From NCBI GenBank assembly GCA_963708025.1, contig CAVPSB010000004.1, positions 1 to 46,990 of the forward strand: DNA of 46,990 bases, given 5' to 3'. The position numbers were made by a program, and so were the translations under genes. The notes under the pieces are model-generated. The model saw nothing but the letters and a program-made list of their open reading frames with translations. It ran no database searches and was not told the DNA's origin. Of this stretch, positions 628 through 18,625 are shown piece after piece. Within the stretch, counting starts at the first letter, position 1. Each line of letters begins with the position of its first letter. Source of the stretch: an uncultured Candidatus Rokubacteria bacterium. Its GTDB lineage: Bacteria; Methylomirabilota; Methylomirabilia; Rokubacteriales; DASRDR01.

Positions 628-1618
628 TCGCGAGCGGCTTCTGGTCGGCGCTGGCGTTCCGGGCGCTGATGGGCGCCGGCTGGGCCGGCAGCTACATGCC
701 AGGGCTCAAGGCCTTGAGCGACCTGGCGGAGGGCCCGCAGCAGTCCCGAGCCGTGGCCGCGCACGCAGCGGCCGTCGGCGTGAGCGGTGCCCTCTCGTTC
801 GGCGTCGCGGGCGCGGTCAACGTGTGGCTCGGGCTGGCACTGGGCGCTGGTGCCCGGTGCACTCGGCGCCGCCCTGGCCTTCGCGCTGGTGCTGGTCGGC
901 GTGCCGTCTCCGACCTCCGGGCGGTTGCGGGCCCGCGCCGCGCCCTGCTCGACTTCCGGCCCATCCTCCGCAACCGGTCGGCGCTCGCCTACTCGGTGGC
1001 GTACTGCGTCCACACGTGGGAGATGTCCGCGCTGCGCGGCTGGGTCGTCGCGTTCCTGACGTTCGTGGCGGCTCGGGCGCCCGGCGCGTGGACGCCGCTG
1101 GCGCCCGCCACCGTCGCCAGCGTGATGGGTCTGTTCGGCGTGTGGGCCAGCGTGTGGGGCAACGAGCTGGCCATTCGATTCGGCCGCCGCCGCTTCATCC
1201 TGGGCATCATGCTCGGCTCCGCCGCGCTGGCGGCCGTGATCGGCTTCGGCGCCGCGCTCCCGTACGCGGGCGCGGCCGCGCTTCCGTGCTGCTGTACGCG
1301 ATCCTGATCTGGTCGGACTCGTCCTCGCTGACCGCGCGGAGTGCCGGCAGCGCCGAACCCGGCCGGCGCGGCGCGACGCTCGCCGTCCACTCGACCCTCG
1401 GGTACGCCGGCGGGTTCCTCGGTCCGCTGGCCCTCGGTGCGACGCTGGATCTTGTCGGCGGCGCGAGCGTGCTGGGCTGGGGGGTGGCCTTCGGCCACGT
1501 CACGGTTGCCCTGCTCCTCGGGGCGCTCGCGTTCGTGTGGCTGCGCCCGGCCGATCTGGCCGGCGATCGTTCGGTGGGGGCGGCCATCGCCGCGGTCCCA
1601 CCCCTGAACCGGACCTGA
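625..1618 (+). pseudogene. MFS transporter, N-terminally truncated and frameshifted
   Basis: Hydrophobic helices SGFWSALAFRALMGAGWAGSYMPGLKALSD, HTWEMSALRGW and RRGATLAVHSTLGYAGGFLGP across frames; no start or first TM helices. Confidence 0.75.
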
Positions 1619-1701
1619 CCTCGTCCCACGCAGGACCGCGAGCCACGGCATTGATGGTTCCGGATCCAACAACGACCAAGGCCCAAGGAGGCGAGACGAC
1701 C

Positions 1702-3226
1702 ATGACCCTCGAAGCGCTCCCTGTCGCTGTCATCGGCGCCGGCCCTGTCGGACTCGCGGCGGCCGCCCACCTCGTCAGCCGGGGCGAGACCCCGATCGTC
1801 CTCGAAGCCGGCGAGCGGGTGGGCGCCACGGTCCGCCAGTGGGGGCACGTCCGGATCTTCTCGCCGTGGCGCTACAACGTCGACGCGGTCGCCGTCGCCA
1901 TGCTGGAGAAGGCCGGCTGGACCATGCCGGATCCCGACCACCTGCCGACCGGCCAGGAGCTCGTCGAGGACTACCTCGAGCCGCTCGCCGAGCTTCCGGA
2001 GATCCGGCCGCACCTGCGCCTCCGCACGCGCGTCGTGAGCATCACGCGCCGCGGCCACGACAAGCTGCGGACGTCGGGGCGAGAGCAGGCGCCCTTCGTC
2101 CTTCGCGTGGTCACGCCGGCCGGGGACGAGGCGATCACGGCCCGCGCGGTGATCGATGCGTCGGGCACGTATGAGTCGCCGAATCCGCTCGGCGCGGACG
2201 GGACCGATGCCCACGGGGAAGCCCGGGTGCGAGATCGCGTGTTCTACGGGATTCCCGACGTCCTGGGCGCGCAGCGCCCGCGCTACGCCGGCCGGCGCGT
2301 GGCGGTCGTCGGCAGCGGCCACTCGGCGCTGAACACCCTGATCGATCTCGCCGAGCTGGCCGTGGCCGAGCCCACGACGCGCATCACCTGGATCGTTCGG
2401 CGCCCGCCGTCCGACCGGGTCTTCGGCGGGGGCGTCGCCGACGCCTTGCCGGCGCGCGGGGCGCTCGGCCAGCACGCGCGGCAGCTCCTGGAGCACGGCA
2501 CCGTCCGGCTGGTCGTCGGCCGGATCGCGGCTGTTTCCAACGCGGCGACGGCCTGGCCATCCTCGACGAGGCCGGCACCACCCTGGTCGTCGCGGACGAG
2601 GTGGTGGCGGTCACGGGATTCCGGCCGGATCTGGGCCCACTCCGCGAGCTTCGTCTGGATCTCGACCCCATCATGGAGGCGCCGCGGGCGCTGGCCCCCC
2701 TGATCGACCCGAACGTCCACAGCTGTGGGACCGTCCCCCCGCATGGCGTCGAGGAGCTGACCCAGCCCGAGCCTGACTTCTTCGTGGTGGGCATGAAGAG
2801 CTACGGCCGCGCGCCGACGTTCCTCATGCTCACGGGCTACGAGCAGGTCCGGTCGATCGTCTGCGCGCTGACCGGGGACCTGGCGGGGCTCGGCGCGTCG
2901 AGCTGACGCTGCCGGCGACCGGTGTCTGCAGCACCCAGCCGAGCGACGCTCGAGCCCCGGCCAGTGGTCCCTCCGGTCCGTCGTGCTGCGGGGGTCCGGC
3001 GCCCGCGGAGGTGGACGCCTGCTGCGCCCAGGACGCGGAGGCCAAGGCGGTCGGCCAGGCTGGCTGTGGCTGCGGATCAGACCGCCCGGCGGACGCCGCG
3101 GTGGCGGGTGCGGCCGGTGGCGAGAGCCCGGGGGCGATCACGGGGGGACCACGGCCGAGCGCGCCGCCGCTGGTGCCCCTCAGCGCGCTCCGGAAAGGCC
3201 CACGAACGAGCGCCTGCTGCGGCTAG
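1702..3226 (+). CDS. FAD/NAD(P)-dependent oxidoreductase (ars-associated flavoprotein monooxygenase type) with Cys-rich C-terminal tail; frameshifted
   Basis: AAGGAG RBS; VIGAGPVG and VVGSGHSA Rossmann motifs; HSCGTVPPHG and GMKSYGRAPTFLMLTGYEQVRS; tail SCCG..ACC..CGCG..SACCG*; indels near 2540 and 2890. Confidence 0.85.
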
Positions 3227-3231
3227 GCGGG

Positions 3232-4453
3232 ATGCGGGCCCCGGGCCCGACCTGGAGGATCGCGCCGGAGCGCTACGGCTGGGTGATCGTCGCGACGCTC
3301 TCCGTGACGGAGACGGTCACCTGGGGCATCGTCTACTACGGCTTCCCGGTCTTCCTGCGGCCGATGGAGCAGGACCTCGGCGCCTCGCGGGTGGCCGTGA
3401 CCGGCGCCTTCTCCGTCGGCCTCGGCGTCTCGGCGCTGGCGGCGCTCCCGGTCGGCCGCTGGCTCGACCGCCACGGCGCGCGCGGGCTCATGACCGCCGG
3501 CTCCGTGCTGGCCACGCTCCTCGACCGCTCGCGTGGGCGCGCGTCGAGAGCCTGCCCGCGCTCTACGCGGTCTGGTTCCTCATGGGACTGGCCATGGCCG
3601 CCACGCTCTACGAGCCGGCGTTCGCGGTGGTGGTGTCGTGGTTCCCGCGAGGGCGCGACCGCGCGCTGCTGACGGTGACGCTGGTGGCCGGGCTCGCCAG
3701 CACGATCTTCATGCCCATCGAGGCGTGGCTGCTGACGCCGGTCGGCTGGCGCAGTGCGCTCACGTCCTGACGGTGGTGCTCGGCGTGATCACGATTCCGC
3801 TGCACGCGCGCTGCTGCGCCGGGCCCCGGCGGGCCGCGGACGGCCGAGCGGGCGGCCGCGCCGCGACCCCGACCTGACGCTGGACGCGGCGGCGCGGACG
3901 CCGGTGTTCTGGGTCCTCGCGCTCGCCTTCTTCGTCGGCAACTTCGCCACCGCCGCCCTCACCACGCACCTGATCCCGTTCCTGGTGCGACCGCGGCTAC
4001 TCCGCGACCTGGGCGGCCATGGTGATCGGCTGGATGGGGGCGATGCAGCTCGCGGGCCGCGTCGTCTTCGTGCCGCTCTCCACGCGGTTCGGGGCGCGCG
4101 TCATGGTGGCCGCCGTCTTCGGCGCGCAGGCGCTCGGGATCGCGCTGCTCCCGCTGGTCGGCGCTGGTGCGCACGCTGGTGCCGTTCATCGTGCTCCAGG
4201 GCGCGGCCAACGGCATGGCCACGCTGGCGCGCGCCACGTCGCTGGCCGAGATCTTCGGCGCGCGCCACTACGGCGCCATCGCCGGCGCCGTCGCGCTCGG
4301 CTCCAACGGCGCCCGCGCGGTCGGTCCCGTCGGCGCCTCGCTCCTGTCGGCCTCGGCTCGTACCCGGCGGTGTTCTGGGCGCTCGCCGTCTCGCTGGTCA
4401 TGGCGGCCGTCACCCTCCTGATTGCTGGCGCAAGGGTCGAGAGCGGCGAGTAG
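3232..4453 (+). CDS. MFS efflux transporter, ArsK-like; frameshifted
   Basis: TETVTWGIVYYGFPVF, GRWLDRHGAR, AATLYEPAF, TLVAGLASTIF; context of ars genes. Confidence 0.8.
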
Positions 4454-4479
4454 CGGCGTCGCTCGGGGCCCGGGAGCGC

Positions 4480-4510
4480 CTCTTGACGGATCAAGAGACG
4501 TTGATACCAT
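4480..4510 (+). promoter_or_regulatory. Sigma70 promoter overlapped by an ArsR/SmtB-type operator
   Basis: TTGACG(4483-4488)-16-TACCAT(4505-4510) with extended TG; ATCAA-N6-TTGAT at 4490-4505; also inverted repeat CTCTTGA-cgga-TCAAGAG. Confidence 0.7.
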
Positions 4511-4524
4511 CGGACCTGCCGACG

Positions 4525-4708
4525 GTGATCTGCGGGACGCTCCGCCAGATCGATCGTGAGCACCGCCGGATCGTGGTCGGAACCGCGGATCTGCCCGGGG
4601 GAGACGGACCGCCTACTCGAGCGACTCCAGGCCGGCATGCCGATCCAGGTCGTCGCCGACGTGCGGGGCGGGGAGACATGGGTGGGGGCGATCGAGCGCG
4701 ATGGCTGA
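4525..4708 (+). CDS. Small hypothetical beta-rich protein, frameshifted
   Basis: ICGTLRQIDREHRRIVVGTADL..LLERLQAGMPIQVVADVRGG..WVGAIERDG* pieced across frames. Confidence 0.35.
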
Positions 4709-4768
4709 GGGGCGCATCTCCCCGGTGGCGCGGGTGACCCGGCTGGGCGCCCGGAGAGGTGTCGCGAG

Positions 4769-5869
<1,101 letters not shown>

Positions 5870-5873
<4 letters not shown>

Positions 5874-6334
5874 CGCGACGCCGGGTGCTCTTCCTGTGCA
5901 CCCACAACTCGGCGCGGAGCCAGATGGCGGAGGGGTTCCTCCGCGCCCTGGCGGGTGAGCGGTTCGAGGTCGCGAGCGCGGGGACCGAGGCGACGCGGGT
6001 GCACCCGCTCGCCCTGCGCGTCATGAGCGAGGTGGGGATCGACATCCGCGGTCATACGTCGAAGACGGTGGACGGTCTGCTGGGCGATCCCTGGGACTAC
6101 GTCATCACGGTCTGCGATAGCGCCAACGAACGGTGCCCGGTCTTCCCCGGCCGGACCACCCGGCTTCACTGGGGCTTCGAGGATCCGTCCCAGACCAGCG
6201 GGACCGAGGCGGCGCGGCTCGAGGTCTTCCGGCGGATCCGGGACGAGATCGCGCGGACGCTACGCGGCTGGCTCGCGACGGTGTCCTGCCTGTGGGCGTG
6301 GCCCACGTCGCCAGCCGGCGGGCACTCGACCTGA
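5870..6334 (+). CDS. arsC: Arsenate reductase, LMW-PTP/thioredoxin type
   Basis: [37 protein letters not shown]; overlaps the acr3 stop (GTGA). Confidence 0.92.
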
Positions 6335-6654
6335 CCCGGGTGGATCAGCGGCCTGGACGGGGCTCCGGGAGAAGACCGCCGCTCGGTGGTGTGGCCGCCC
6401 GCGTGGCGCTCGTCATCCTGGTCGTGGCGCGCATCGGCCAGGGTCTCTCGGTCGCGGAGCTCCGGGGCGCGGCTTGGCGGGGCGGCGAGCGGGGGCCCGC
6501 GGTGCGTGCGATCGGGCGGTGGCTGGTTCGGCGCCACTGCCCGGCCAGTTGACCGAGCACTGACGGGAGAGTCCCACCCGGGGGCGCGGAGGCGCGCCCG
6601 GGTGCGAGGGTGGGACCCGACTCGAACGTCTTGTCTCACCGGATCGCGGCCGCG

Positions 6655-7380
6655 TCACGGGTCCCGCTCGAGCGCGGCACCGTGCGCGCGTTCGGGCTCA
6701 GGCGTCCCGTAGAGGAGCCGTGCGGCGGCCAGGCGTGCCGTCGGGAAGAGCCACAGCGCGACGACGGTCGCCGCCGCCGCTCCCGCTCCCGACGCCAGGA
6801 CGGCTGGACCGATGGGCGGCGGGACAGGGGCCCCGCGGCCCCAGGACGCCACGGAGGCGGCGACGAGGGTGAGCGGGTTCCCCGAGGCGCCGGCGTTGGT
6901 GAACCAGAAGCATGCCGATGCGTACGCCCCCACCGCCAGGGGGACCCGGACGTCCTGGCGATGCGCCACGCCGAGGGCGACGAGGACGAAGCCGAACGCC
7001 GCGACGCCCTCGCGCGTCAGGACCACGTGCTCCGGCACGCTGCTGGGCAGCCCGGCGGCGAATGTCAGCGGCACCAGGATGCCCGCGACGTACCCCATCG
7101 TGGCCGCCGTGAGGAGCTGCACGGCGAGCACGATGAGACAGCGCCCCGCGCCTTGCTGCCCGACCAGGGCAGCGACGAGGGTGAGCCAGGGGTGCAGGTG
7201 GATGCGGGCGACCGAGCCGGGGCCCCACAGAGCGAGGCCGTAGCCCAGCCCGAGGATCAGCGCCGCGACGACGGCGCTCGCGAGCGGCGCATCCGCGGCC
7301 TCGACCCGGGCCGCACCGGAGAAGGCCGTCGCCGCCAGGATGGTCGCGACGGCCACCGCCTCGGCCGCGAGCCTCCTCAT
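6655..7380 (-). CDS. Divergent MIP/aquaporin-family channel (AqpS-like)
   Basis: MRRLAAEAVA start, about 6 hydrophobic segments, IHLHPWLTL and AVGAYASACFWFTNAGASGNPLTL at the two NPA positions. Confidence 0.7.
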   Translation of the reverse strand: MRRLAAEAVAVATILAATAFSGAARVEAADAPLASAVVAALILGLGYGLALWGPGSVARIHLHPWLTLVAALVGQQGAGRCLIVLAVQLLTAATMGYVAGILVPLTFAAGLPSSVPEHVVLTREGVAAFGFVLVALGVAHRQDVRVPLAVGAYASACFWFTNAGASGNPLTLVAASVASWGRGAPVPPPIGPAVLASGAGAAAATVVALWLFPTARLAAARLLYGTPEPERAHGAALERDP

Positions 7381-7789
7381 GCGATCGCGTTGCACCCTCG
7401 GGGTCGCTCCACGCGCCCGATCCACGTCCCGACGTGGCCAGCCACGTGATCCGCGACCCTGGGGTCGTACGCCCCCTGGGCGTGGCGCGCTGTGCGTTCC
7501 GGAGGCGCGAGGCATGCCACGGGCGCTCATCATCGGCGCTCCTCCCGTAGATGAGGGACGCTGTCCGCGCGTCTGGGGGTGATGTCCGACCGAAAAGGTC
7601 GCCGGACCTAGTGTGACAGGAGTGCCCCACGTGAGGCAGAACTTCCGCTCTCCGGACCCGGCGTGAGAACCGAACCCACCCTGACCGCACTGGTCGTCGC
7701 GCGCCGAGACCCCCTGAATGATCCATTCGACTAGAGCGTATGCACCAGCCGGCTGACCGGGGGCCGTCGTGGATTCACATGACGCGGTG

Positions 7790-7805
7790 TGGCACACCCG
7801 TTGCT
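7790..7805 (+). promoter_or_regulatory. Sigma54 (-24/-12) promoter
   Basis: TGGCAC-acccg-TTGCT, a consensus match, 55 bp upstream of the ATG at 7860. Confidence 0.85.
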
Positions 7806-7859
7806 CATTCGACGTCGCGGTTTGTCTGACCTCAGTCCACCGGAGCGAGGAGGTCGCCC

Positions 7860-8741
7860 ATGTCGTCTCCCGGTCCCGACGAGACTTGCCGGCCTCGAAC
7901 CGTCTCCCGGCGCCGCTTCCTCCAAGGCGTCGGAACGGCCGCCGCCACGGCGGTCGCCGTGGGCGAGGCACCCGCCCGGACCGAAGCGGCGGCGCCGTGG
8001 GTGCCGCTGCCGACCCTGCCGTCGGATGCGCCACCGAACCTCCTGCTGCGCCTCCAGGCCGACGTCCGGCGGGCGCTCGAGAAGCCGGTCGAGCAACGCC
8101 GGTGGGTGATGGGGATCGATGTCCGGAAGTGCGTGGGATGCTCCGCCTGCACGATCGCCTGCGCCGTCGAGAACAAGCTGCCGCCTGGGATGTTCTACCG
8201 GGTGGTCCAGGAGGAGATGACCGGGGAATATCCCGACGTTCGTCGTCGGTTCTTCCCGCGGCCGTGCCTGCACTGCGACAATCCGCCCTGCATCCCCGCC
8301 TGTCCGGTCGAGCCGGTCAAGGCGACCCACAAACGCCCGGATGGCATCGTGGCGATCGACTACGAGCGGTGCATCGGTTGTGGGCTCTGCGTCGCCGCGT
8401 GCCCCTACGGCGCCCGGTCCCTGGACAACGGGGATTTCTTCACGGAGGGGACGCCCCGCCGCCAGGCGTACGAGAGCGCACCGGCCTACGAGTACGGCCG
8501 CGAGTGGACGCGCGATGGGTCCAGCCTGCCCGTGTCGAAGGCGCGCAAGTGCCATCTGTGTCTCCACCGCTTGGAGGCCGGCATGCTCCCGGCGTGCGTG
8601 ACCACGTGCATCTGCAACGGGGTCTACGTCGGCGACGCGAACGACCCGGCGAGCCTGGTGAGCGAGCTGGCGCGGCAGCCCAACGTCGTGCGGCTCCGGG
8701 AAGAGCTGGGCACCAAGCCGTCCGTCTTCCACATCGTGTAG
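7860..8741 (+). CDS. ttrB: 4x[4Fe-4S] electron-transfer subunit (TtrB/SrdB/NrfC type) with Tat signal
   Basis: [64 protein letters not shown]. Confidence 0.88.
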
Positions 8742-8750
8742 GAGGAGATC

Positions 8751-11700
8751 ATGAGCGGGCACCCTGACAGCCGGCGCGCGTTCCTGAAGACGGCGGCGCT
8801 CTTTGGCGGATCGGCCGCGGCGAGCCGGATTCCCGACGTGCTCAGGGGGCTGCCCGCGGCCGAGGCCGCGGGCGCCCCCTACCCCCTCGCCGAGCCGGAG
8901 CGCCTCCTCTACTCGGTCTGCCAGCAGTGCAACACCCAGTGCGGGATCAAGGTCAAGCTCCACGACGGCATCGTCGCCAAGATCGACGGGAACCCGTATT
9001 CCCCGTGGAACATGGTCCCGCATCTGCCGTATGCCACGCCCGTGATCCAGGCGGCGGCGGTCGAGGGCGCCCTGTGCCCGAAGGGGCAGGCCGGCATCCA
9101 GACGGCCTACGATCCCTACCGGATCGTGAAGGTGCTGAAGCGCGCCGGCAAGCGCGGCGAGAACAAGTGGCGCTCGATTCCGTTCGACCAGGCGATCGCG
9201 AGATCGTCGAGGGCGGGCTCCTGTTCAAGGACGTCCCCGGCGAGGAGACCCGGCAGGTGGAGGGGCTCAGCGACCTGTGGGCGGTCCGCGACCCGAAGTC
9301 GCCTGAAGGAGCTGGCCGGATGACGCGAAGAAGGTGGCCGCCAAGCAGATGACCCTGGCCGACTTCAAGGCCAAGCACGCGGCTCGCCTGGACGCGCTCA
9401 TCGACCCCGATCATCCGGACCTCGGGCCCCGGAACAACCAGTTCGTCTTCATGTGGGGACGGGTCAAGGGCGGGCCGGGGCGATCTCATCCGGCGCTTCA
9501 CCAGGCGGCGCCTTCGGCTCGGTCAACGCCCACGGCCACACGACGGTCTGCCAGGGCTCGCTCTACTTCACGGGCAAGGCCATGAGCGAGCAGTACCGTA
9601 CGACCGACGGGCGAAGTGGTCGTGGACGGGCGGGGCCAAGTTCTACTGGCAGGGCGACCAGCAAACGGCCGAGTTCATGCTCTTCGTCGGCGCCTCCCCG
9701 TTCGAGGGCAACTACGGCCCGACGAACCGCGCGCTCCGCATCGCCTCACCGGGTCGCGGACGGGTCCGCTGAAGATCGCGGTGGTCGACCCGCGCGCCTC
9801 GAAGATCGCCGGCCAAGGCCTGGAAGTGGGTGCCGATCAAGCCGGGCAGCGAGGGGGCCCTGGCGCTCGGCATGATCCGCTGGATCATCGAGAACCAGCG
9901 CTACGACGCCCGCTACCTCGCGAACGCCAACAAGGCGGCGGCCGACGGCGGACAAGGAGCCGACCTGGTGCAACGCCGCGCTGGCTGGTGAAGCTCGAGA
10001 AGGGCGAGCCCGGGCGCGTTCCTGCGCGCCTCGGAGATCGGCCTCCCCGTCGAGACGCGGACGATCAAGGACGCGAGTGGGGGCGAGACCGCCTACGCGT
10101 TCGATCCGTTCCTGGTCTGGAAGGACGGGAAGCCGATGCCCGTTCGACCCCAACGACGAGACAAGAGCCCGGCCGAGGGCGACCTGCTCGTCGCGACCGA
10201 GGTGAACGGCATCACGGTCAAGACCGGGTTCCAGATCCTCTGGGAGCACGGCCGCGGCCCGGAGCCTCGAGCGAGTGGGCGCAGCTGGCCGGCATCGACC
10301 GCCGCGCGACATCGAGGAGCTGGCCCGGGAGTTCACGAGCCACGGCAAGCGGGCGGTGGCCGACATCCACCGCGGGCGTCTCCCAGCACACCAACGGCTT
10401 CTACAACGTCTTCGCCTGGTACACGCCTCAACCTGCTGATCGGCAACTACGACTGGAAGGGCGGGATGGTCAAGGCCACCACCTACGACCCGACCGGTGG
10501 CAAGACCGAGAAGGACTGGCGCAGCCGTTCCCGATCAGTCGCACCAACGGCAAGCTCGACCCGTTCGGGATCAGCGTGATCCGCCACGGCGACAAGTACG
10601 AGGAGACGACGCTCTTCGCCGGCTACCCGGCCAAGCGCCCGTGGTTCCCCCTCTCCTCCGACATCTACCAGGAGATCATCCCGTCGATCGGCGACGCGTA
10701 CCCGTACCCGGTCGAAGGCGCTGTTCATCTACATGGGCTCGCCGGTCTACTCGCTGCCGGCCGGCCACACCAACATCGAGGTCCTGGCCGATCCGCGAGA
10801 AGATCCCGCTGTTCGTCGCCAACGACATCGTGATCGGCGAGACCTCCATGTACGCCGACTACATCTTCCCGGACGTCTCGTACCTCGAGCGGTGGGAGTT
10901 CGCCGGCTCCCACCCGAACATGGTCTGGAAGGTCCAGCCCGTCCGCCAGCCGGTCATCGCGCCGATCCCGGAGACCGTCACGGTCTTCGGCCAGGCCATG
11001 CCGATCAGCCTGGAGGCGATGCTCCTGCGCGATGGCGGAGAAGCTCGGGCTGCCCGGCTTCGGGCCCGACGGGTTCGGTCCCGGCCAGCCCTTCACCCAC
11101 CCCGACCACCTCTACCTCCGCATGGTCGCGAACCTGGCGGCCGGCGACAAGGCGCCGGAGGCCCTGCCGGACGCCTCCCCGGACGAGATCCGGATCTTCC
11201 TCGACTCGCGGCGGCACTTGCCGACGACGGTGTTCGACGCGGCCCGCTGGCAGGCGATCGTCGGGGCGGACTGGTGGCCGAAGGTGGTCTATCTCCTCAA
11301 CCGCGGGGGCCGGTTCGACGACTTCGCGAAGGGCTACGAGGGCGAGCAGGCCAAGAACAAGTACGGGACGCTCATCAACTTCTACCAGGAGAAGACCGCG
11401 AAGACGAAGAACGCCATGACCGGCCAGCCGTTCCCCGGCATCGCCAGCTACGTCCCGGCGCCGGCCGACGCCCTGGGACGGCCGCTCCCGGACGAGCGGG
11501 ACGGGTACGACCTCCGGATGATCACCTTCCGGGAGATCTTCCACACCAAGTCCCGGACCGCGGCCAACTACTGGCTTCTGTCCCTGTTGCCCGAGAACAG
11601 CGTGCTCATGAACCCGCAGGACGCCGCCCGGCGCGGCCTGGCGGACGGGGAGCGGGTCCAGATCCGGTCGCGCTCGAATCCGGCCGGCGTCTGGGACTTC

Positions 11701-11982
11701 CGGAACGGCAAGACCCGCCCGATCGCCGGACGGCTCACCGTGACGCCCGGCATCCGCCCCGGCGTCGTGGCCTACTCCCTCGGACACGGGCACTGGGCCT
11801 ACGGCGCCGAGGACGTCGTGATCGATGGCCAGGTCGTCAAGGGCGATCCCCGCCGCGGCGGCGGGATCCACGCGAACGCCGCGCTCCGGGTGGACCCGGT
11901 GCTCGGGAACACCACGCTCAGCGATCTGACCGGCGCCAGCGCCGTCTTCTACGACACCTCCGTCACGGTGACGCGCGCCTGA
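8751..11982 (+). CDS. ttrA: Molybdopterin oxidoreductase catalytic subunit, tetrathionate reductase (TtrA/SrdA) clade; many frameshifts
   Basis: Tat [22 protein letters not shown]0 cluster; [20 protein letters not shown] (Cys ligand position); [24 protein letters not shown]-terminal domain; about 1070 codons. Confidence 0.85.
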
Positions 11983-11993
11983 GAGGAGGGCCG

Positions 11994-12320
11994 ATGGCCG
12001 AGCTGCCGCAGCCATTCCAGCGGTTCCGTGACCAGAACCCGGCGGTCGTCACCGCCTACGAAGCGCTCGGCGAGGCGTGCGCGCAGGCCGGGCCGCTCGA
12101 GCCAAGGACGCGGGAGCTCGTGAAGCTCGCCCTCGCGATCGGCGCGCGGCTCGAGGGGGCCGTCCATTCGCACGCCCGCCGGGCCCTCGAGGCCGGCGCC
12201 AGCCGGGCCGAGATCCAGCACGTGATCGTGCTGGCGGCGCCGACCCTCGGCTTTCCCACCACGGTCGCGGTCTCGACCTGGGTGGATGACGTGCTGCGCT
12301 TGACGGAGACGACCCGATGA
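11994..12320 (+). CDS. Carboxymuconolactone decarboxylase/AhpD-like protein
   Basis: [49 protein letters not shown]. Confidence 0.85.
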
Positions 12321-13181
12321 GCGCGCCGGACGCCGGGGTCGATCGGCCGCTGGCGGCCCGCGCCTTCCAGGACCTCCTGGCGGAGGCCGTCGCCTTCCAC
12401 GGGCACCTCTGCCCGGGCCAGGTCCTCGGCGTCCGCATGACGCTGGCGGGCTGACGGGCTCGAGCGGCCGAGGGCCGCCGGGAAGGGCCTGGTCGTTCGT
12501 CGAGATCGATCGCTGCGCGACGGACGCCATCCAGGTCCTGACCGGCGTGAGCATCGGCAAGCGCACGCTGCGCCATCGACTGGGAGATGGCGGCGACCTT
12601 CGTCGACGTCGCGGGGGCGTTGGGGGTTATCGCTCGGACGCACGCGTGGCGGCAATCTCGACTACGGGAAGATGGCGGCCACCTGTATTTCGGTCGACGC
12701 GCGGCGCCGGGCCGTCCGGGTCGTGGCGCGGGACGATGCCCGGCACCGCGCCGCCGAGTGGGCGCCGGCCGAGCCGGATCGCCGGCAGGCGCAGATGGTC
12801 GCCTACGAGGTGATGCCGGAGGCCGCGCTGCTCCGGATCGACCCGGTGGTGATCCGCCCGGGCTGGCTCGACCGGCGGCGCCGGCGCGTCGCGTGCGAGG
12901 CGTGCGGCGAGGGGATCACCTACGAGCGTGAAGTCGTGCGGGGCGGCCGCACCCTCTGCCGATCCTGCGCCGGGGACGGATACTACGCGCGGGTGAGTTC
13001 CCCGGCCTCGAACGGACCCGGTCAGACCGAGGGCCAGACGGTGTGGGCGGTGACGGTCGCCGTCGCCCCGCGGGCCGTCCGTGGCATCGGACGCCGTGAC
13101 GGACGGGGGGCTGATGTGCAGCCGGGAGTGCCGTCCGATCGCGCCCGACGCCGGCCGGCACGACTTTCAGGCGATCTATGA
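12317..13181 (+). CDS. FmdE-family protein with C-terminal zinc finger; frameshifted, 3' end uncertain
   Basis: [55 protein letters not shown]. Confidence 0.85.
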
Positions 13182-13723
13182 CGAATTCCAGCCGAAGATC
13201 CGTCGCTACCTGACGCGCCTCGTCGGCGCCACCGAAGCCGAGGATCTGACCCAGGAGGTCTTCGTCAAGGTCAGTCAGGCCCTCCCCGATTTTCGGGGGG
13301 ATTCCAGGGTCTCGACCTGGGTCTATCGCATTGCGACGAATGTCGCCTTCGATCGGCTGCGGAGCCCCTCATATCGGCGCGCGGCTCGAGTGCCGCTGGA
13401 GGGCCCCGAGCTCGCGGCCGGTCGACGGGTCCGGCATCGAGCAGGAGCTGATTCGGAAGGAAATGCAGGCGTGCATCCGCGGGTACATCGAGGACCTCCC
13501 GCCGCCGTACCGATCGGTGGTGCTGCTCAGCGAGGAAGCGGAGCTCACCAACCAGGAGATCGCCGACGTGCTGGGCCTCACCCTCGACACGGTCAAGATC
13601 CGGCTCCATCGCGCGCGGGGTCGGCTCAGGAAGGACCTCGGCCGCGGCTGCACGGTCTCTCGGGACGAGCGCAACGAGCTCGCCTGCGAGCCGAAGGTCG
13701 GGGGTGTATCCTCCGAGGACTGA
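13114..13723 (+). CDS. ECF RNA polymerase sigma factor (SigZ-like, Cys-containing C-terminal extension); one frameshift
   Basis: AEDLTQEVFVKV, STWVYRIATN, EIADVLGLTLDTVKIRLHRAR, C-terminus GCTVSRDERNELACEPK. Confidence 0.88.
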
Positions 13724-13759
13724 CCGCCGTCTATAGGGGCGGAGAAGGGAGGTCAGGCC

Positions 13760-14017
13760 ATGAAGCTCGACGATCGGATCACCGAGTTGGTCGCCATCGG
13801 GGCCTCGGTCACCGCGAACTGTCTCTCGTGTCTGGAGTACCACGTGAGCAAGGCCGCGGAGGCCGGCGTCGACGAGGAGGAGATCGCTGGGGCCATCGAC
13901 GTGGGCAAGATGGTCCGCAGGGGCGCGGCCGGCAAGATGGACAAGCTCGTGGAGAGCCTTCGCCGGACTGCCCCGTCGGGAACCAGCGGCCCGACCCAGA
14001 GCTGTGGGTGTGCGTGA
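13760..14017 (+). CDS. CMD/AhpD-like protein with CxxC
   Basis: ELVAIGASVTANCLSCLEYH, C-terminal SCGCA; GGAGG RBS. Confidence 0.85.
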   Translation: MKLDDRITELVAIGASVTANCLSCLEYHVSKAAEAGVDEEEIAGAIDVGKMVRRGAAGKMDKLVESLRRTAPSGTSGPTQSCGCA

Positions 14018-14048
14018 CGGCGCCGTGCCCGTGACGGAGGAATCGGCG

Positions 14049-14285
14049 ATGTGGGGACCAGGACCGTGGGGCATGCCGATGTGGGGCCTGGGCTGGGTGT
14101 TCCCGCTCCTCGGGTTGCTGTTCATCATCGGCATGATGGTGTTCTGTGCGCGCGCGATGCGGGGGATGATGGGCGGCGCGGGGATGTGTGGCCATGGCGA
14201 GCGCCACGTGAGCGACGCGGACGACCTTCGGCGCGAAGTGCGTGAGCTCCGCGAGGAGGTCCAGAAGCTTCGAGCAGGCCGTTGA
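14049..14285 (+). CDS. Small Met/Gly-rich single-TM protein with C-terminal coiled coil
   Basis: GGAGG RBS; MWGPGPWGMPMWG, TM helix, GMCGHG, LRREVRELREEVQKL. Confidence 0.65.
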   Translation: MWGPGPWGMPMWGLGWVFPLLGLLFIIGMMVFCARAMRGMMGGAGMCGHGERHVSDADDLRREVRELREEVQKLRAGR

Positions 14286-14395
14286 GGCGAGGCGTCGCCG
14301 ACCGCCCCGGCCGCTGAACGGGTCTCGCGCGGTCGCACGACGCCGCGGCCGCGATGAACCCGATCCGGTTGCAGAAGGCCGAACGCGGTCCAGCG

Positions 14396-16201
14396 TCAGG
14401 CTGGCGAACGATCCCGGGCCGCCAGCTCGCGCAGCCGCGCCGGTCCGGCTGCGTCACTCACCTGAAACGGGACGAGCGCGACGCGCTGAGCCAGATCCGC
14501 TGCGACTCTGCGGATCAGCGCGCACCTCGGCGTTCGCCCGCTGCTGCAGGACAGGATCGGTCAGGTGCGCCGCGAGCAGGCTCGCGTTGATCACCCACGC
14601 GAATGGTTCGATGCCCGCCTGTCGCAGGTCCTCTTGAAGGGCCTGCGCCTCGAGGACCGGTGTCGTCTCCGCGAGCGTGACGATGAGCACCTTCGTCACC
14701 TCGGGATCGCGCAAGATCATCAGCGGCGTGACGAACCTCGGCTGCCCTGGTGTTCGGCTCGTGCGGCACCAGCTGGCGATGGAATGACACCGGCCGTGTC
14801 GAGCAGGCGCAGCGTGTGGCCGGTCGGCGCCGTATCGACGACGACCAGCTCGTGTTTCGCACGCACGACGATCTTCGAGAAGGCGACGAAGAACGCGATC
14901 TCGTCGTAGCAGGGAGACTGCAGTTCCTCGTGCAAGAGCGCACGGTGCTCCGCATCAAGCCCTGGCGCCTTGCTGGCGAATGTCTCATCGCGATAGCGGC
15001 GCGCCTCCGCGACCGGGTCGATACGGCTGACGCTCAGCCCCGGGACATCGCTACGGCCAGTGTTTCGGTCAGGTGCGCCGCGGGATCGGTGGTCGTGAGA
15101 AGGACGGGTCGGCCGCGATCCGCCAGCGCGACGGCGATCGAGGCGGCGATGGTCGTCTTGCCGACCCCGCCCTTGCCCATGACCATGACCAACCCGTGAT
15201 CACGGGCCGCGAGTTCCTCAATGATCGAGGCGAGCGGCGGAATCGCTGGCATCTCGACACTCGTCGCGCGCGGCTCGCGGACCCTGAGGTTCCTCTCCCT
15301 TCGGTTCGGCCAAGAACGCGCGCACCATCGGCAGACCCACGATGTTGAAGCCGCGCATCGGCACGTCGATGCGCCGAAGCGCGCGCAGGCCCGCCGGCAT
15401 GTCAGCCAACGCCTTGTTCGCCCGCTCCTCGACCGCCAGAGCCACTGGATCGTGACGGTCTGTCGCGCGGAACACCGCGTTGACGATCAGCACCTGGTTC
15501 TGCATCCCAAGCGCGCCGAGTTCCGTGCGGGTTCGTTCAGCCTCCAGAAGCGCCACGCGATCGGGCCGCGCGACGAGCACGAGGGTGGTCGCACTGGCAT
15601 CGCCCAGCGTGCGCACGGCCTCTTGGTAACGCGCCTGCTGCGCCTTCAGGCCCGCCAGCGGGCCCAGACACGACACGTCAGGGTTGCTCGTATCCAGGTA
15701 GCGACTCCAGGCCGCCGGCAGTTGCAGCAGGCGCAGCGTGTGGCCGGTCGGAGCCGTGTCGAAGACGACGTGATCGACTGACTGCATCAGCGCGTCCTGA
15801 CCGAGCAGCACGGTGAATTCGTCGAAGGCCGCGACCTCGACGGTGCAGGCGCCGGCGAGCTGCTCTTCGAGCTGGGCGAGCTCCGCGGCCGGGCACGGTG
15901 CCGCGGTAGGGGGCGATGGTGCGCGTCGCGATAGTCCCGCGCGGCCGCATCGGGATCGATGTTCATCGCGAGCAGGTCTGGGGCACCCGGAACGGACCGA
16001 CGGCGTGTTCCCGAGCGCACGCCGAGGACCGCGTCGAGGTTCGACGCCGGGTCGGTGCTCACCAGCAGCGTGCGTCGACCCCGATCGGCAAGACCGACGG
16101 CGGTCGCACACGCGAGCGACGTCTTGCCGACGCCGCCCTTCGCCTGTGAAGAAGTAAAAGCGGACCGGGTGCTGGATGAGCTCGAGCACGGCGTCGCTCA
16201 C
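14396..16201 (-). CDS. arsA: Arsenical pump-driving ATPase; frameshifted
   Basis: Two GKGGVGKT P-loops, two DTAPTGHTLRLL, STDPASNL, metalloid Cys in GACTVE, SCLGP and SPC. Confidence 0.93.
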
Positions 16202-16439
16202 ATCGCCTCGTGGGATGACGGCGCGGCGCGACTCAAGATGGACGCCGCTCGCCGGGTCCACCCGAGCGGCTCAGGCCGTGGCAGTCCCACTCCTTCTTCA
16301 GCGCGGTCATGCCGGCCACTTGGTCAAGGCTGTCATGGCATCCTCCCGGCTCGCGGAGGAACGGACCTGCTGAGCGGACGGTGCAACGCCGGTGCCACGG
16401 GTCCTTGGCTGGCAGGGTGCCACTTCACGACGAGCCGCG

Positions 16440-16640
16440 TCCCGGTTTGAGGCGTTGCTGACCCACCTGGGCACCCGCGCCCCCATGCGGGCGTGACGCC
16501 ACCGGCCAAGACCTCCACGACGTAGGGGTGAAGTGGTCGGGAAGCTTGGCACGCTTGAGGGTCCGGGCGAAGGCGCGGCGGACGTTCGCAACCTGGAGCG
16601 ATGTCGCGGTCTCGGAACAGAACACGAGCGCCGGCATCTC
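16440..16640 (-). mobile_element. Degenerate tyrosine integrase C-terminal remnant
   Basis: PALVFCSETATSLQVANVRRAFARTLKRAKLPDHFTP precedes the position of the HxLRH box, which is destroyed. Confidence 0.55.
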
Positions 16641-16772
16641 ACGTCGCCGGACCGAACCTGTGCGATGTGGCGGGCAGGGCGTCCTGGTCGGGCCCGCTGT
16701 CGGGCAGGCGTCCAACAAGGAAGCCTGTGGGTGGATCGCAAGAGTGTAGGGCTCGTCGAGCGGCATCACGCC

Positions 16773-17243
16773 TCACCCCTCACGCTCACGACGGCGGTGC
16801 CTCGCCGCGATCTCTCGTGCCGTCACGCCCGTTGCCCCGACCACGTGGTCCAGCACGCGGCGAACCCGGCCGAGTAGTGCGAGCAGGGCGCGTCCGTGTG
16901 GTGTCAAGGCGGTGCCTCTCGCAGCGCCCTTGCCGGGACGAGCGTGCGTCAGGGGAGCGCCCAGCGTGCGTTCGGCCTGGCGAAGGTATCCCCAGGCATG
17001 GCGATAGGACCACCCCACGTGCCGGGCCGCGGCGGCGAGCGATCCCAGGCGCCGGAGGTGACGGAGCAGATGCCATCCGCCCTCCCCGATGAGGAACCGG
17101 CCACCCTCGGCTTCGAGCCAGACCTTGGTGCGAACGTGGAGGCCGACTATGTTCGGCGGTGCCTTTTGACGGCTCGCTCGCCCACCGGTACCCTCCGCCT
17201 CGGTCGGCGAGCGACGGCGTGGCAGGCGCTCCCGAGCCCGCAT
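16773..17243 (-). CDS. ModE-like winged-helix regulator, DNA-binding domain only; start uncertain
   Basis: KVWLE..FLIGEGGWHLL..GSLAAAARHVGWSYRHAWGYLRQAERTLG..GTALTPHG. Confidence 0.85.
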   Translation of the reverse strand: MRARERLPRRRSPTEAEGTGGRASRQKAPPNIVGLHVRTKVWLEAEGGRFLIGEGGWHLLRHLRRLGSLAAAARHVGWSYRHAWGYLRQAERTLGAPLTHARPGKGAARGTALTPHGRALLALLGRVRRVLDHVVGATGVTAREIAARHRRREREG

Positions 17244-18090
17244 GGCCCCTCATCATACCGAGTCGTTGACGGGAAGGACATCGGGGTGGCGGCAGCCCGC
17301 GTGGGCGATCGTCACGGGCACCGGCGTCGGAATGCTCGGCGGCTTGCTAGGGCTCGGGGGGGCCGAGTTCCGACTCCCCGTGCTCGTACGCCTGTTTGGC
17401 TACGGCCTACCGCGAGCGATCCGCTTCAATCTCGTCATCAGCGGTGTGACGGTCCTCGCGGCGCTCACGACGCGGGTGATCTTGACCGGATCCACCAGTG
17501 CCCATCTGACCTCGCTTGGCGCACCGGTTCTGGGCATGATCCCTGGCGGCATGGCCGGGGCGTACCTCGCCGGGACGTGGTTGATCACGGTCTCCGAGGC
17601 CGCGCTGCATCGAATGGTGCGGACGCTGTTACTGGGTATCGGTGTGCTGTTGATTGTCGAAGCCGGGGTACCCTGGGCGTCGGCTGGCCTCCCCCTGGGG
17701 CCGCTGGGCCTGGCGGCGCTCGGATGTGTGGCTGGTCTGGGCATTGGCGTGGTCAGCAGCGTGCTCGGCGTCGCCGGCGGCGAGCTGATCATCCCGACCC
17801 TCATCTTTGGCTTCGGGGCTGAGGTCAAATTAGCCGGCACGCTGAGCCTGCTGATCAGCCTACCGACGATCCTCGTCGGACTTCGGCGCCACTGGGTCCA
17901 GGGGCATCGATTCGACGGTGGCGATCTTGCGACGATGATTCTCCCGATGGCCGCCGGGTCCATCGCCGGGGCCGTGCTGGGCGGCGCGCTCGTCCGCTAT
18001 GCGCCTGCTCCCGCCGTGAAGATGCTTCTGGGCCTCGTCCTGATCGGATCCGCGCTGAAGGCGTTCTCGCCAAGCCGAGTAGCCTCCTGA
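17242..18090 (+). CDS. TauE/SafE sulfite-exporter family permease
   Basis: GGLLGLGGAEFRLP and SSVLGVAGGELIIPTL repeats; about 8 TMs. Confidence 0.88.
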   Translation: MAPHHTESLTGRTSGWRQPAWAIVTGTGVGMLGGLLGLGGAEFRLPVLVRLFGYGLPRAIRFNLVISGVTVLAALTTRVILTGSTSAHLTSLGAPVLGMIPGGMAGAYLAGTWLITVSEAALHRMVRTLLLGIGVLLIVEAGVPWASAGLPLGPLGLAALGCVAGLGIGVVSSVLGVAGGELIIPTLIFGFGAEVKLAGTLSLLISLPTILVGLRRHWVQGHRFDGGDLATMILPMAAGSIAGAVLGGALVRYAPAPAVKMLLGLVLIGSALKAFSPSRVAS

Positions 18091-18226
18091 CCTGGCTAAC
18101 GGAAGGCGAGCGGACGACGGGGTTCGCTGAGGATATGGACACTCACGGGTTCCGGGCAACCTAGCACCGAGCCCTGCCAGCACGACCAGCCTGGCGTCCT
18201 AGCGGCGACGAGCACGACACAAAGCG

Positions 18227-18462: not shown

Positions 18463-18625
18463 TTCGATCGTCGACGGGAACCTGGTCCGCCGCCGCGCCT
18501 CGACGGATTCGGCGGACACCTCGGCGTCGCCGGTGTGGCAGCCCGCTCTTCGTCTTCGGCGGAGAGGCGGCCACTCCCGACGGGGCAGTCCACGTCAACC
18601 TCGAGAGCATTCGGCATCGACGCCA

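What the first reader, a model, noticed from the sequence alone, without database searches (positions are those of the whole stretch)
7860..11982. TtrA-clade molybdoenzyme inside an ars island: candidate non-Arr respiratory arsenate (or thioarsenate/selenate) reductase
Seen in sequence: Tat-exported 4x[4Fe-4S] and Mo-bisPGD subunits with TtrA/SrdA-like motifs, placed between acr3-arsC-aqp and arsA. From general knowledge, this clade includes tetrathionate reductase, Bacillus selenate reductase SrdA and homologs implicated in arsenate respiration (e.g. in Pyrobaculum and Anaeromyxobacter). Inference: the context favours an arsenic substrate that arrA-based surveys would miss; the nearby TauE raises thioarsenate as an option.
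Basis: partly seen in the sequence, partly recalled or inferred. Interest (0 to 1): 0.82.

Follow-up and report, generated by a model that had tools for sequence, protein, structure and literature searches.

The report
Ttr-like arsenate reductase beside ars genes
A soil Rokubacteria genome carries, next to its arsenic-resistance genes, a periplasmic molybdenum enzyme of the already described "tetrathionate-reductase-like" arsenate reductase group, and the many breaks in the gene look like assembly errors rather than decay.

Summary
7860-8741 encodes a Tat-signalled 4x[4Fe-4S] protein. 8751-11982 encodes a Tat-signalled Mo-bisPGD catalytic subunit. Both sit among acr3, arsC and arsA.

The catalytic gene carries 22 single-base frame breaks (9198-11028). 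It has no in-frame stop and no extra substitutions, and near-identical short contigs from four public runs lack these indels. The breaks are most likely assembly errors.

The protein belongs to a large, tightly conserved clade: at least 580 species representatives, mostly uncultured. That clade includes sequences a 2024 paper lists as >70% similar to the Ttr homologues of Anaeromyxobacter PSR-1 and Geobacter OR-1, which are reported As(V) reductases.

- Read through the breaks, it is 53-57% identical to those sequences and 31% to a bona fide TtrA.
- It keeps the Gly-Arg pair reported for arsenic enzymes; this is absent from true Ttr in my alignment.
- 22 of 73 homologous loci carry ars-type genes.

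This is a new member in Rokubacteria, not a new kind. Its oddity is that it has no NrfD anchor, no cytochrome and no arsenic sensor nearby, so the electron donor is unknown. Thioarsenate and selenate remain untested.

The parts
7860..8741 (+). Iron-sulfur electron-transfer subunit (TtrB-like), 293 aa, intact. It has a Tat motif SRRRFLQ and four Cys groups for 4 [4Fe-4S] clusters.
   Evidence: Translation. Pfam Fer4_11 2.8e-18. NCBIfam TtrB 170 bits (cut-off 416) and ArrB 137 bits (cut-off 450).
8751..11982 (+). Mo-bisPGD catalytic subunit (Ttr-like arsenate reductase clade), about 1070 aa when read through 22 single-base frame events at 9198-11028. Tat motif SRRAFLK at the start.
   Evidence: Identity to P0001 is 88.6% (N-terminal intact part), 89.7% (frameshifted middle) and 93.1% (C-terminal intact part).
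8919..9077 (+). FS0 [4Fe-4S] Cys motif of the catalytic subunit (CxxCxxxC...C). Codons at 8919, 8928, 8940 and 9075.
   Evidence: The columns are invariant in alignment A1.
9454..9462 (+). Trp-Gly-Arg: the Gly-Arg pair that is invariant in the clade and absent from bona fide TtrA.
   Evidence: The motif is described in PMC12949373.
9549..9551 (+). Cys ligand of molybdenum, within [10 protein letters not shown].
   Evidence: Cys is present in 76 of 76 clade rows.
11997..12320 (+). Small CMD (AhpD-like) protein directly after the catalytic gene. The start coordinate is approximate.
   Evidence: Pfam CMD 1.6e-15. tblastn with locus homologues covers 11994-12299. The same family follows the enzyme in 10 of 73 loci.
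12290..13178 (+). FmdE-like protein with a C4 zinc ribbon, split over three frames.
   Evidence: Pfam FmdE and zf-dskA_traR hits in three ORFs. tblastn finds it in frames 2, 1 and 3. The same family lies downstream in 18 of 73 loci.
13054..14017 (+). ECF-type sigma factor (regions 2 and 4 in two frames) followed by a second CMD-domain ORF (13724-14017).
14457..16270 (-). ArsA arsenite-pump ATPase with two halves, split over several frames.
   Evidence: Five ORFs with ArsA_ATPase hits.
4709..5822 (+). Acr3 arsenite efflux permease (SBF family) with one frame break near 4995. By my search it is the only acr3 in the genome.
   Evidence: Pfam SBF 2.3e-26. tblastn finds it in two frames. It is the one place found in G000.
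5774..6334 (+). Thioredoxin-type (LMWP) cytoplasmic arsenate reductase ArsC, intact.
   Evidence: Pfam LMWPc. NCBIfam arsC_pI258_fam 141.6 bits, cut-off 174. tblastn 68% to a Rokubacteria ArsC.
6655..7392 (-). Possible divergent aquaporin/MIP-like membrane protein. Weakly supported.
   Evidence: No Pfam or NCBIfam hit. All 30 nearest ESM Atlas clusters are MIP, score 0.92.
17170..18090 (+). TauE/SafE family anion exporter.
   Evidence: Pfam TauE 1.5e-26. The family recurs in 5 of 73 loci.
1240..2700 (+). Flavin/NAD(P) oxidoreductase whose best NCBIfam model is ArsO. The match is far below the cut-off.
   Evidence: Pyr_redox_3. ArsO 47 bits against a cut-off of 425.
2872..4450 (+). MFS transporter, split over three frames.

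Best explanation
This is a two-subunit, Tat-exported periplasmic molybdoenzyme of the 'Ttr-like' (non-Arr) arsenate reductase clade, and it is most likely intact in the living organism.

Proposed mechanism:
- Both subunits carry their own twin-arginine signal.
- Electrons pass through four [4Fe-4S] clusters in the small subunit and one in the large subunit (FS0) to a Cys-ligated Mo-bisPGD centre.
- There, arsenate bound by the conserved Gly-Arg pocket is reduced to arsenite.
- Arsenite is then handled by the adjacent Acr3/ArsA efflux genes, and ArsC handles arsenate inside the cell.

Shown here: domain make-up, signals, ligand residues, clade membership and recurrent ars linkage.

Inferred: the substrate, the direction of the reaction, and that the frame breaks are errors of the assembly.

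Unknown: the electron donor. The window has no NrfD anchor, no c-type cytochrome and no arsenic sensor.
For: 1. Anatomy. Tat motifs, 16 Cys in the small subunit, the FS0 Cys motif, the Mo-ligand Cys and the Pfam domains are all present.

2. Clade.
- The motifs CNT[QG]CGIK and HGHTTVCQ mark at least 580 species representatives.
- In an 81-row tree, the window, P0001 and 74 others form one clade (SH-aLRT 98-99). This clade excludes a bona fide ttrA, a Pseudomonas TtrA, and Azospirillum, Citrobacter arsenatis and Halomicrobium enzymes.
- A 32-row mixture-model quick tree keeps the clade, with SH-aLRT support 85-88 against Halomicrobium and 98-100 against the rest.

3. Link to studied enzymes.
- Five rows nested in that clade (P0147, P0153, P0145, P0215, P0121) carry accession numbers.
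- Table S2 of PMC11462812 lists those accessions as >70% similar to the PSR-1 and OR-1 TtrA homologues.
- That paper states these homologues are induced 14- and 6-fold under As(V) respiration and have As(V) reductase activity.
- The paper's Anaeromyxobacter ttrA primer matches the window at 9430-9450 with 3 mismatches, against 0 expected by chance.
- Read-through identity is 55.6-56.9% to the five Table S2 sequences (53.3% to Geotalea daltonii) and 31.2% to true TtrA.

4. Motif.
- Gly-Arg at P0001 236-237 is present in 76 of 76 clade rows.
- It is absent from the three Ttr/Azospirillum outgroup rows.
- This fits the distinction drawn in PMC12949373.

5. Context.
- ars-type genes occur in 22 of 73 loci; acr3 or arsC in 11 of 73.
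- An ArrX-like phosphonate-type binding protein occurs in 22 of 73 loci.
- A rough chance expectation is under 1%: 3 acr3/arsC places in 8.17 Mb of G000.
- The window holds the genome's only acr3, and the genome has no ArrA equivalog (best 240 bits against a cut-off of 1600).

6. Frame breaks are probably artefacts.
- 18 of 22 are single extra bases, not in homopolymers.
- There are no in-frame stops.
- Identity is the same inside (89.7%) and outside (88.6%, 93.1%) the broken stretch.
- Contigs from runs X1-X4 leave out one base at 9299, 9320, 9472, 9509/9513, 9748, 9768, 9977 and 10427, and add one at 9598. These positions match my events.
- Low-ORF-quality 6-kb bins make up 90 of 1335 genome-wide, and they are enriched near contig ends (29 of 165 against 61 of 1170).
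Against: - No enzyme of the window's own subclade (Rokubacteria/Limnocylindria) has been assayed. It is only 53-57% identical to the group that contains the studied enzymes.
- I never saw the PSR-1 or OR-1 sequences or the two primary papers, which are not held. The link runs through a supplementary table and second-hand statements.
- I did not see Figure 2B of PMC12949373, so which Gly-Arg it means is inferred from my own alignment.
- 51 of 73 loci show no ars-type gene within reach.
- The window has no ArrX/S/R-like sensor genes and no NrfD. The arsR search of G000 found no place on this contig. No CxxCH-bearing ORF lies in 1-18700.
- The contigs laid are 90-99% alike and all from one study. 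They show that close relatives lack the indels, not that this organism does.
- NCBIfam's best models are TtrA and TtrB, far below their cut-offs.
Confidence: 0.62

Rival explanations
1. The gene is a true pseudogene in a decaying arsenic island, and the enzyme is no longer made.
For: - The catalytic gene has 22 frame events.
- acr3, MFS, FmdE, the ECF sigma factor and ArsA are also split across frames.
- Good-ORF cover is 0.04, 0.49 and 0.00 in the first three 6-kb bins, against 0.58 genome-wide.
Against: - There are no in-frame stops and no large deletions, and 18 of 22 events are insertions.
- Amino-acid identity to P0001 is not lower in the broken stretch.
- Contigs up to 97-99% alike lack the indels at the same positions.
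- Similar low-quality patches occur across the assembly and cluster at contig ends.
Confidence: 0.1
2. It is a genuine tetrathionate (or other sulfur-compound) reductase that merely lies near ars genes.
For: - The best NCBIfam models are TtrA and TtrB.
- Sources name homologues 'tetrathionate reductase subunit A'.
- TauE (sulfite-exporter family) lies nearby.
- PMC11462812 itself cautions that environmental 'ttrA' may mix both activities.
Against: - The TtrA model scores 444 bits against a cut-off of 1750.
- Identity to a bona fide TtrA is 31%.
- There is no TtrC, TtrS or TtrR.
- The Gly-Arg pair is present.
- ars linkage recurs across the clade.
Confidence: 0.08
3. It works in the opposite direction, as an anaerobic arsenite oxidase (Arx-like), or in periplasmic detoxification rather than in energy-conserving respiration.
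For: - There is no quinol-oxidising NrfD anchor and no cytochrome in the window.
- It is embedded in a resistance island.
- PMC5492636 proposes an auxiliary, ars-co-regulated role for the Melioribacter 'TtrA'.
- From general knowledge, Arr and Arx are close relatives that run in opposite directions.
Against: - The only activity reported for this clade is As(V) reduction (second-hand).
- 27 of 59 homologous operons do carry NrfD.
- 7 of 19 anchorless operons have multihaem cytochromes nearby, as expected of respiratory enzymes.
Confidence: 0.12
4. The substrate is another oxyanion: selenate (SrdA-like), antimonate or thioarsenate.
For: [quoted passage not shown]
- TauE recurs in 5 of 73 loci.
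- TauE also lies next to arsC on the Citrobacter arsenatis plasmid.
Against: - No selenium- or antimony-related gene recurs among the neighbourhood clusters that I annotated.
- The clade holds the relatives of the As(V)-reducing enzymes.
- I had no SrdA sequence, so its place was not tested.
Confidence: 0.08

Closest known systems
Ttr-homologue respiratory arsenate reductases of Anaeromyxobacter sp. PSR-1 and Geobacter sp. OR-1 (Muramatsu 2020 and Tsuchiya 2019, known to me only through PMC11462812 and PMC12949373)
   Same: - It falls in the same well-supported clade as sequences listed as >70% similar to them.
- The Gly-Arg pair, Cys ligand and FS0 motif are the same.
- The nearest locus rows to those references (L063, L080, L083, L048 second copy, L088) also have FeS directly followed by the catalytic gene, with no NrfD.
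- ars genes are nearby in L063 and L083.
   Different: - Identity is only 53-57% and the subclade is different (Rokubacteria/Limnocylindria).
- No multihaem cytochrome and no arsR lie nearby in the window.
- Nothing in this subclade has been assayed.
Melioribacter roseus 'TtrABC' with ArrTSR and arsRPCB (PMC5492636)
   Same: The published neighbourhood is a phosphonate-type binding protein, a histidine kinase and a response regulator upstream, with an ars operon beside it. This is the commonest pattern among the 73 loci.
   Different: The window lacks the sensor trio and the membrane subunit. I did not have the M. roseus sequence.
Bona fide tetrathionate reductase TtrBCA with TtrSR (enterobacterial type; here a Citrobacter freundii plasmid copy, L097)
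   Same: Gene order is B before A. Both subunits are Tat-signalled (for Ttr this is general knowledge). Both have a Cys-ligated Mo-bisPGD, and TtrA/TtrB are the best NCBIfam models.
   Different: - Identity is 31%.
- Scores are far below the equivalog cut-offs.
- There is no TtrC, TtrS or TtrR.
- The Gly-Arg pair is present here and absent there.
- The branch between them is long.
ArrAB respiratory arsenate reductase (Shewanella sp. ANA-3, PDB 6CZ7)
   Same: Both are soluble periplasmic AB enzymes without a dedicated membrane subunit, with the same proposed substrate and a Gly-Arg in the pocket (per PMC12949373). ArrA is the second-best solved relative by sequence.
   Different: - The ArrA model scores 89.5 bits against a cut-off of 1600, and ArrB 137 against 450.
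- The protein is about 1070 aa against an 814-aa chain.
- Only local alignments could be made.
Ttr-like BCA operon on the Citrobacter arsenatis LY-1 plasmid, divergent from arsRDABC (L096)
   Same: It is a Ttr-like enzyme next to ars genes and a TauE gene, and it has Gly-Arg at the same alignment position.
   Different: Identity is 35%, it lies outside the clade on a long branch, and it has a membrane subunit.

Membership tests
Ttr-like (non-Arr) respiratory arsenate reductase clade (PSR-1/OR-1 type) | The catalytic subunit groups with the PSR-1/OR-1 homologues and apart from bona fide TtrA. | tested here: met
   This was tested through proxies. P0147, P0153, P0145, P0215 and P0121 carry accessions listed in Table S2 of PMC11462812. 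They share a clade with the window. Identity is 53-57% to these sequences against 31% to TtrA. The PSR-1 and OR-1 sequences themselves were not available.
Ttr-like (non-Arr) respiratory arsenate reductase clade (PSR-1/OR-1 type) | A Gly-Arg pair in the substrate pocket, absent from true Ttr (PMC12949373). | tested here: met
   Window codons 9457-9462 encode the pair. It is present in 76 of 76 clade rows and absent from the three Ttr/Azospirillum rows. The figure defining the motif was not seen, so the position is inferred.
Ttr-like (non-Arr) respiratory arsenate reductase clade (PSR-1/OR-1 type) | Cys ligand of Mo, an FS0 [4Fe-4S] motif, and Tat export. | tested here: met
Ttr-like (non-Arr) respiratory arsenate reductase clade (PSR-1/OR-1 type) | Arsenic-responsive control (ArrX/T-S-R trio or ArsR) beside the operon. 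| tested here: not met
   Queries for the binding protein, kinase and regulator found nothing in the window. The one binding-protein query hit was a shadow ORF over the FeS gene. arsR queries hit four other contigs but not C4. Among relatives, the binding protein is present in 22 of 73 loci.
Ttr-like (non-Arr) respiratory arsenate reductase clade (PSR-1/OR-1 type) | As(V) reductase activity, with no tetrathionate reduction. | not testable with these tools
   This needs an enzyme assay.
Bona fide tetrathionate reductase TtrBCA | The score reaches the NCBIfam equivalog cut-offs for TtrA and TtrB. | tested here: not met
   TtrA scores 444 bits against 1750 for P0001, and 102 bits for the window's C-terminal ORF. 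TtrB scores 170 against 416.
Bona fide tetrathionate reductase TtrBCA | A TtrC (NrfD-type) gene between B and A, and the TtrSR regulators. | tested here: not met
   Only 9 bases separate the two genes. No NrfD, kinase or regulator hit was found in the window. None of the five NrfD places in G000 lies on C4.
ArrAB respiratory arsenate reductase | The score reaches the NCBIfam ArrA/ArrB equivalog cut-offs. | tested here: not met
   ArrA scores 89.5 bits against 1600, and ArrB 136.6 against 450. No ArrA equivalog occurs anywhere in G000.
SrdBCA selenate reductase (Bacillus selenatarsenatis) | Phylogenetic grouping with SrdA. | not tested
   No SrdA sequence could be obtained with the tools. The lineage is known from PMC7331816 only.

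The most novel reading that the evidence does not exclude
The Rokubacteria form may be a distinct working variant. It is an anchorless, cytochrome-less BA enzyme whose constant companions are a cytoplasmic CMD protein and an FmdE-like zinc-ribbon protein, not a TorD-type chaperone or a quinol dehydrogenase. If so, it may draw electrons from a still unknown periplasmic partner. Alternatively, it may serve the ars island as a periplasmic arsenic redox step (in either direction) rather than as a classical respiratory terminal reductase. In this reading FmdE would be a new kind of maturation factor for this clade.
Probability: 0.2. Interest if true: 0.55.

Novelty: new member of a known kind. Interest (0 to 1): 0.35.

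Why it matters
Arsenate-respiring capacity in soils and aquifers is usually surveyed with arrA. PMC11462812 reports that Ttr-like genes out-express arrA in paddy soils.

This window adds Rokubacteria, an abundant uncultured soil lineage, to the holders of that enzyme. The 73 loci show that the clade is very large, spans many phyla, and is repeatedly tied to ars genes and an arsenic-type sensor trio.

The window also gives a clean example of the anchorless form with no obvious electron donor, which is an open mechanistic point.

It is not a new kind of system. The scan has met the same clade before on other DNA.

Tried and rejected
- Structure prediction of P0001 with the 20-row alignment A1 gave mean pLDDT 45.2 and pTM 0.37. 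That is too poor, so no fold search was run.
- PDB sequence searches gave only local alignments to PsrA (2VPW) and ArrA (6CZ7). These skip the stretch with the Gly-Arg pair and the Mo Cys, so residue equivalence to ArrA R165 could not be shown. PDB chain ids are not usable as sequences.
- The primary papers on PSR-1 and OR-1 are not held.
A look-up of ten cluster representatives did not contain the OR-1 or PSR-1 accession.
- An apparent ArrX-like hit on C4 was a shadow ORF on the strand opposite the FeS gene.
- No ORF of the 80 related loci matches window 6300-7870.
- Pfam and NCBIfam find nothing for the putative aquaporin.
- The careful tree search did not finish in time. The mixture-model quick tree was used instead.
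- A literature search for Rokubacteria with arsenate, ttrA or tetrathionate reductase listed no paper holding 'Rokubacteria' among its 15 best of 177.


Full report
**What is there**

The window is the whole of contig C4 of an 8.17-Mb, 49-contig assembly. The assembly is rated 99.67% complete and 8.18% contaminated. One genome of the same order (G032) is identical over 2563 bases to a record titled Candidatus Rokuibacteriota (L065). The organism is therefore a Rokubacteria relative.

G+C is 66-75%.

The small subunit at 7860-8741 (+):
- It is an intact 293-aa protein with an SRRRFLQ twin-arginine motif and four cysteine groups.
- It carries Fer4 Pfam domains.
- Its best NCBIfam model is TtrB, 170 bits against a cut-off of 416.

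The catalytic subunit starts nine bases later, at 8751:
- It has an SRRAFLK motif, Molybdop_Fe4S4 at the N-terminus and Molydop_binding at the C-terminus.
- Its middle runs through all three frames.

**The frame breaks**

I aligned the DNA to P0001, a 1071-aa full-length homologue, with a frameshift-aware alignment.
- It gives 22 frame events between 9198 and 11028: 18 single extra bases and 4 missing bases.
- There is no in-frame stop, and 966 of 1067 codons are identical.
- The events are not in homopolymer runs.
- Identity to P0001 is 88.6% in the intact N-terminal part, 89.7% in the broken middle and 93.1% in the intact C-terminal part. The broken stretch has therefore not drifted.

Contigs of four public runs (one study, 90-99% alike) behave as follows. 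They leave out one base at 9299, 9320, 9472, 9509/9513, 9748, 9768, 9977 and 10427, and add one at 9598. These positions match my events.

Neighbouring genes in the first 18 kb are also split across frames: acr3, MFS, FmdE, the ECF sigma factor and ArsA. Across the assembly, 90 of 1335 6-kb bins have almost no clean ORF cover. Such bins are commoner near contig ends, 29 of 165 against 61 of 1170.

I read the breaks as consensus errors of the assembly. The contigs come from close relatives and from one study, so this is strong but not final.

**Family**

- P0001 scores 444 bits on the TtrA equivalog model (cut-off 1750) and 89.5 on ArrA (cut-off 1600).
- G000 has no ArrA equivalog.
- Homologues of 1050-1100 aa are very many and very conserved. 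Twenty from several phyla are 62-83% identical to P0001.
- Two motifs of the alignment mark at least 580 species representatives. The best 80, all from metagenome-assembled or uncultured genomes of many phyla, were fetched with flanks.
- Cultured Geobacteraceae also hold members.

**Link to known enzymes**

PMC11462812 (abstract, passages and supplementary tables read) treats 'ttrA' homologues as respiratory As(V) reductase genes. It cites work on Anaeromyxobacter PSR-1 and Geobacter OR-1, which I could not read.

Its Table S2 lists sequences >70% similar to those two enzymes. Several accessions in it are those of my P0147, P0153, P0145, P0215, P0121 and P0249.

In an 81-row tree, the window, P0001 and 74 others, including five of these references and Geotalea daltonii, form one clade (SH-aLRT 98-99). 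Outside it lie:
- a bona fide ttrA;
- a Pseudomonas TtrA;
- Azospirillum, Citrobacter arsenatis and Halomicrobium enzymes.

The 81 rows were 68 locus proteins of 950 aa or more, 7 database proteins, the read-through window and 5 outgroups. A 32-row mixture-model quick tree agrees, with support of 85-88 at the weakest node. The careful search did not finish.

The window sits with Rokubacteria and Limnocylindria rows (L011-L013). The published references form another, nested subclade.

Read-through identity:
- 70-78% to Rokubacteria and Limnocylindria rows;
- 53-57% to the references;
- 40% to Halomicrobium, and 35% to C. arsenatis and to Azospirillum;
- 31% to true TtrA.

The paper's Anaeromyxobacter ttrA primer matches 9430-9450 with three mismatches, against none expected by chance.

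**Active site**

PMC12949373 (sections and passages read) makes three relevant statements:
- True Ttr does not reduce As(V), and the Ttr-like enzyme does not reduce tetrathionate.
- A Gly-Arg pair is present in Arr, Arx and Ttr-like arsenate reductases but absent from Ttr.

In my alignment, Gly-Arg at P0001 236-237 (window 9457-9462) is present in 76 of 76 clade rows and in the C. arsenatis enzyme. It is absent from the true TtrA, the Pseudomonas TtrA and the Azospirillum row. A second Gly-Arg five residues later is shared by the clade and the TtrA and Azospirillum rows, so it cannot be the discriminating one.

The Mo-ligand Cys (9549-9551) and the FS0 cysteines are kept. I did not see the paper's figure, and I could not align ArrA through this stretch.

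**Neighbourhoods**

I clustered ORFs of the 80 loci and named the recurrent clusters with Pfam. Seven loci were dropped because their catalytic ORF was under 600 aa or not clustered. That left 73 loci with 80 catalytic genes.

The commonest order is: phosphonate-type binding protein, histidine kinase, LuxR-type regulator, FeS, NrfD, catalytic subunit, FmdE-like protein, then cofactor-synthesis genes. This is the pattern published for Melioribacter roseus.

Counts over the 73 loci:

| Feature within reach | Loci |
|---|---|
| ars-type genes (arsR, acr3, arsC, ars-type thioredoxin) | 22 |
| acr3 or arsC | 11 |
| Binding protein | 22 |
| FmdE | 18 |
| CMD | 10 |
| TauE | 5 |

Among the 51 loci with 10 kb or more of flank, ars-type genes occur in 18. 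On the tree, ars linkage changes state at least 19 times among 57 rows. It is therefore not one inherited arrangement.

As a rough yardstick, G000 has three acr3/arsC places in 8.17 Mb. That makes a chance hit in a 23-kb stretch under 1%.

**What is unusual here**

Of 59 catalytic genes with 3 kb or more upstream:
- 27 have NrfD between FeS and the catalytic gene;
- 11 have a gap where NrfD was not recognised;
- 19 have FeS directly adjacent, as in the window;
- 2 have no FeS upstream.

Adjacency is more conserved on the tree, with 8 changes among 56 rows. Anchorless operons more often have a multihaem ORF within 5 kb: 7 of 19 against 3 of 38.

The window has none of the following:
- a CxxCH motif in any ORF of 40 aa or more in 1-18700;
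- an NrfD on the contig;
- a sensor trio.

An arsR search of G000 found four places, none on this contig. Downstream lie CMD, FmdE, an ECF sigma factor with a second CMD ORF, then ArsA, LysR and TauE. The electron donor and the regulator are therefore open.

**Distribution**

- In the window's family, 1 of 20 other genomes (G001) has an orthologue.
- In the rest of the order, 5 of 20 do (G023, G025, G031, G032, G033).
- One more (G039) has a 40%-identical relative.
- The count of genomes without an orthologue includes the unpublished G038.

**Verdict**

The kind is already described, so this is a new member in Rokubacteria. The scan has reported the same clade on other DNA, with ars islands and with cytochromes in place of an anchor. 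Those notes prompted my cytochrome check.

Thioarsenate, selenate and the direction of the reaction remain untested.

Noticed in passing
window 1-18000; G000 genome-wide: The assembly has patches dense in single-base indels, here about one per 83 bases in 9198-11028. 90 of 1335 6-kb bins have almost no clean ORF cover, and such bins are enriched near contig ends. Gene calls in these patches will be fragmented.
   Followed up: partly
window 11997-13178; L011-L090: A small CMD protein (10 of 73 loci) and an FmdE-like zinc-ribbon protein (18 of 73) recur directly downstream of the catalytic gene. No TorD-type chaperone was among the recurrent clusters that I annotated. FmdE may be the maturation factor of this clade.
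   Followed up: partly
L018, L036, L046, L048, L055, L056, L080: Anchorless (FeS-adjacent) operons have a same-strand ORF with 2-10 CxxCH motifs within 5 kb in 7 of 19 cases, against 3 of 38 operons with room for NrfD. This suggests cytochromes replace the membrane anchor in many lineages.
   Followed up: partly
L096 (Citrobacter arsenatis LY-1 plasmid NZ_CP037863.1): A different, long-branched Ttr-like BCA operon lies divergently next to arsRDABC and a TauE gene on a conjugative IncFII plasmid. Hits with the same score occur on plasmids of Citrobacter freundii, Salmonella, E. coli and Enterobacter ludwigii (H14-H22). Only H14's annotation was read.
   Followed up: partly
window 6655-7392 (-): This membrane-protein ORF has no Pfam or NCBIfam hit, yet all 30 of its nearest ESM Atlas clusters are aquaporins. 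It may be a divergent MIP channel with altered NPA boxes, or a damaged reading.
   Followed up: partly
L011, L018, L019, L026, L031, L048, L052: Seven loci hold two catalytic-subunit genes of the clade within about 20 kb. One copy in L052 (at 1626) is the deepest branch of the clade. L026 is titled a Nitrososphaeria archaeon.
   Followed up: no
window 13054-14017 (+): An ECF-type sigma factor is followed by a CMD-domain ORF where an anti-sigma factor would be expected. It lies between the enzyme genes and arsA.
   Followed up: no
window 18698-20835 (-): Intact groES-groEL genes mark where clean reading frames resume. The rest of the contig carries ABC transporters, asparagine synthases and an IclR regulator, so the ars-enzyme block sits in ordinary chromosomal context.
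   Followed up: no
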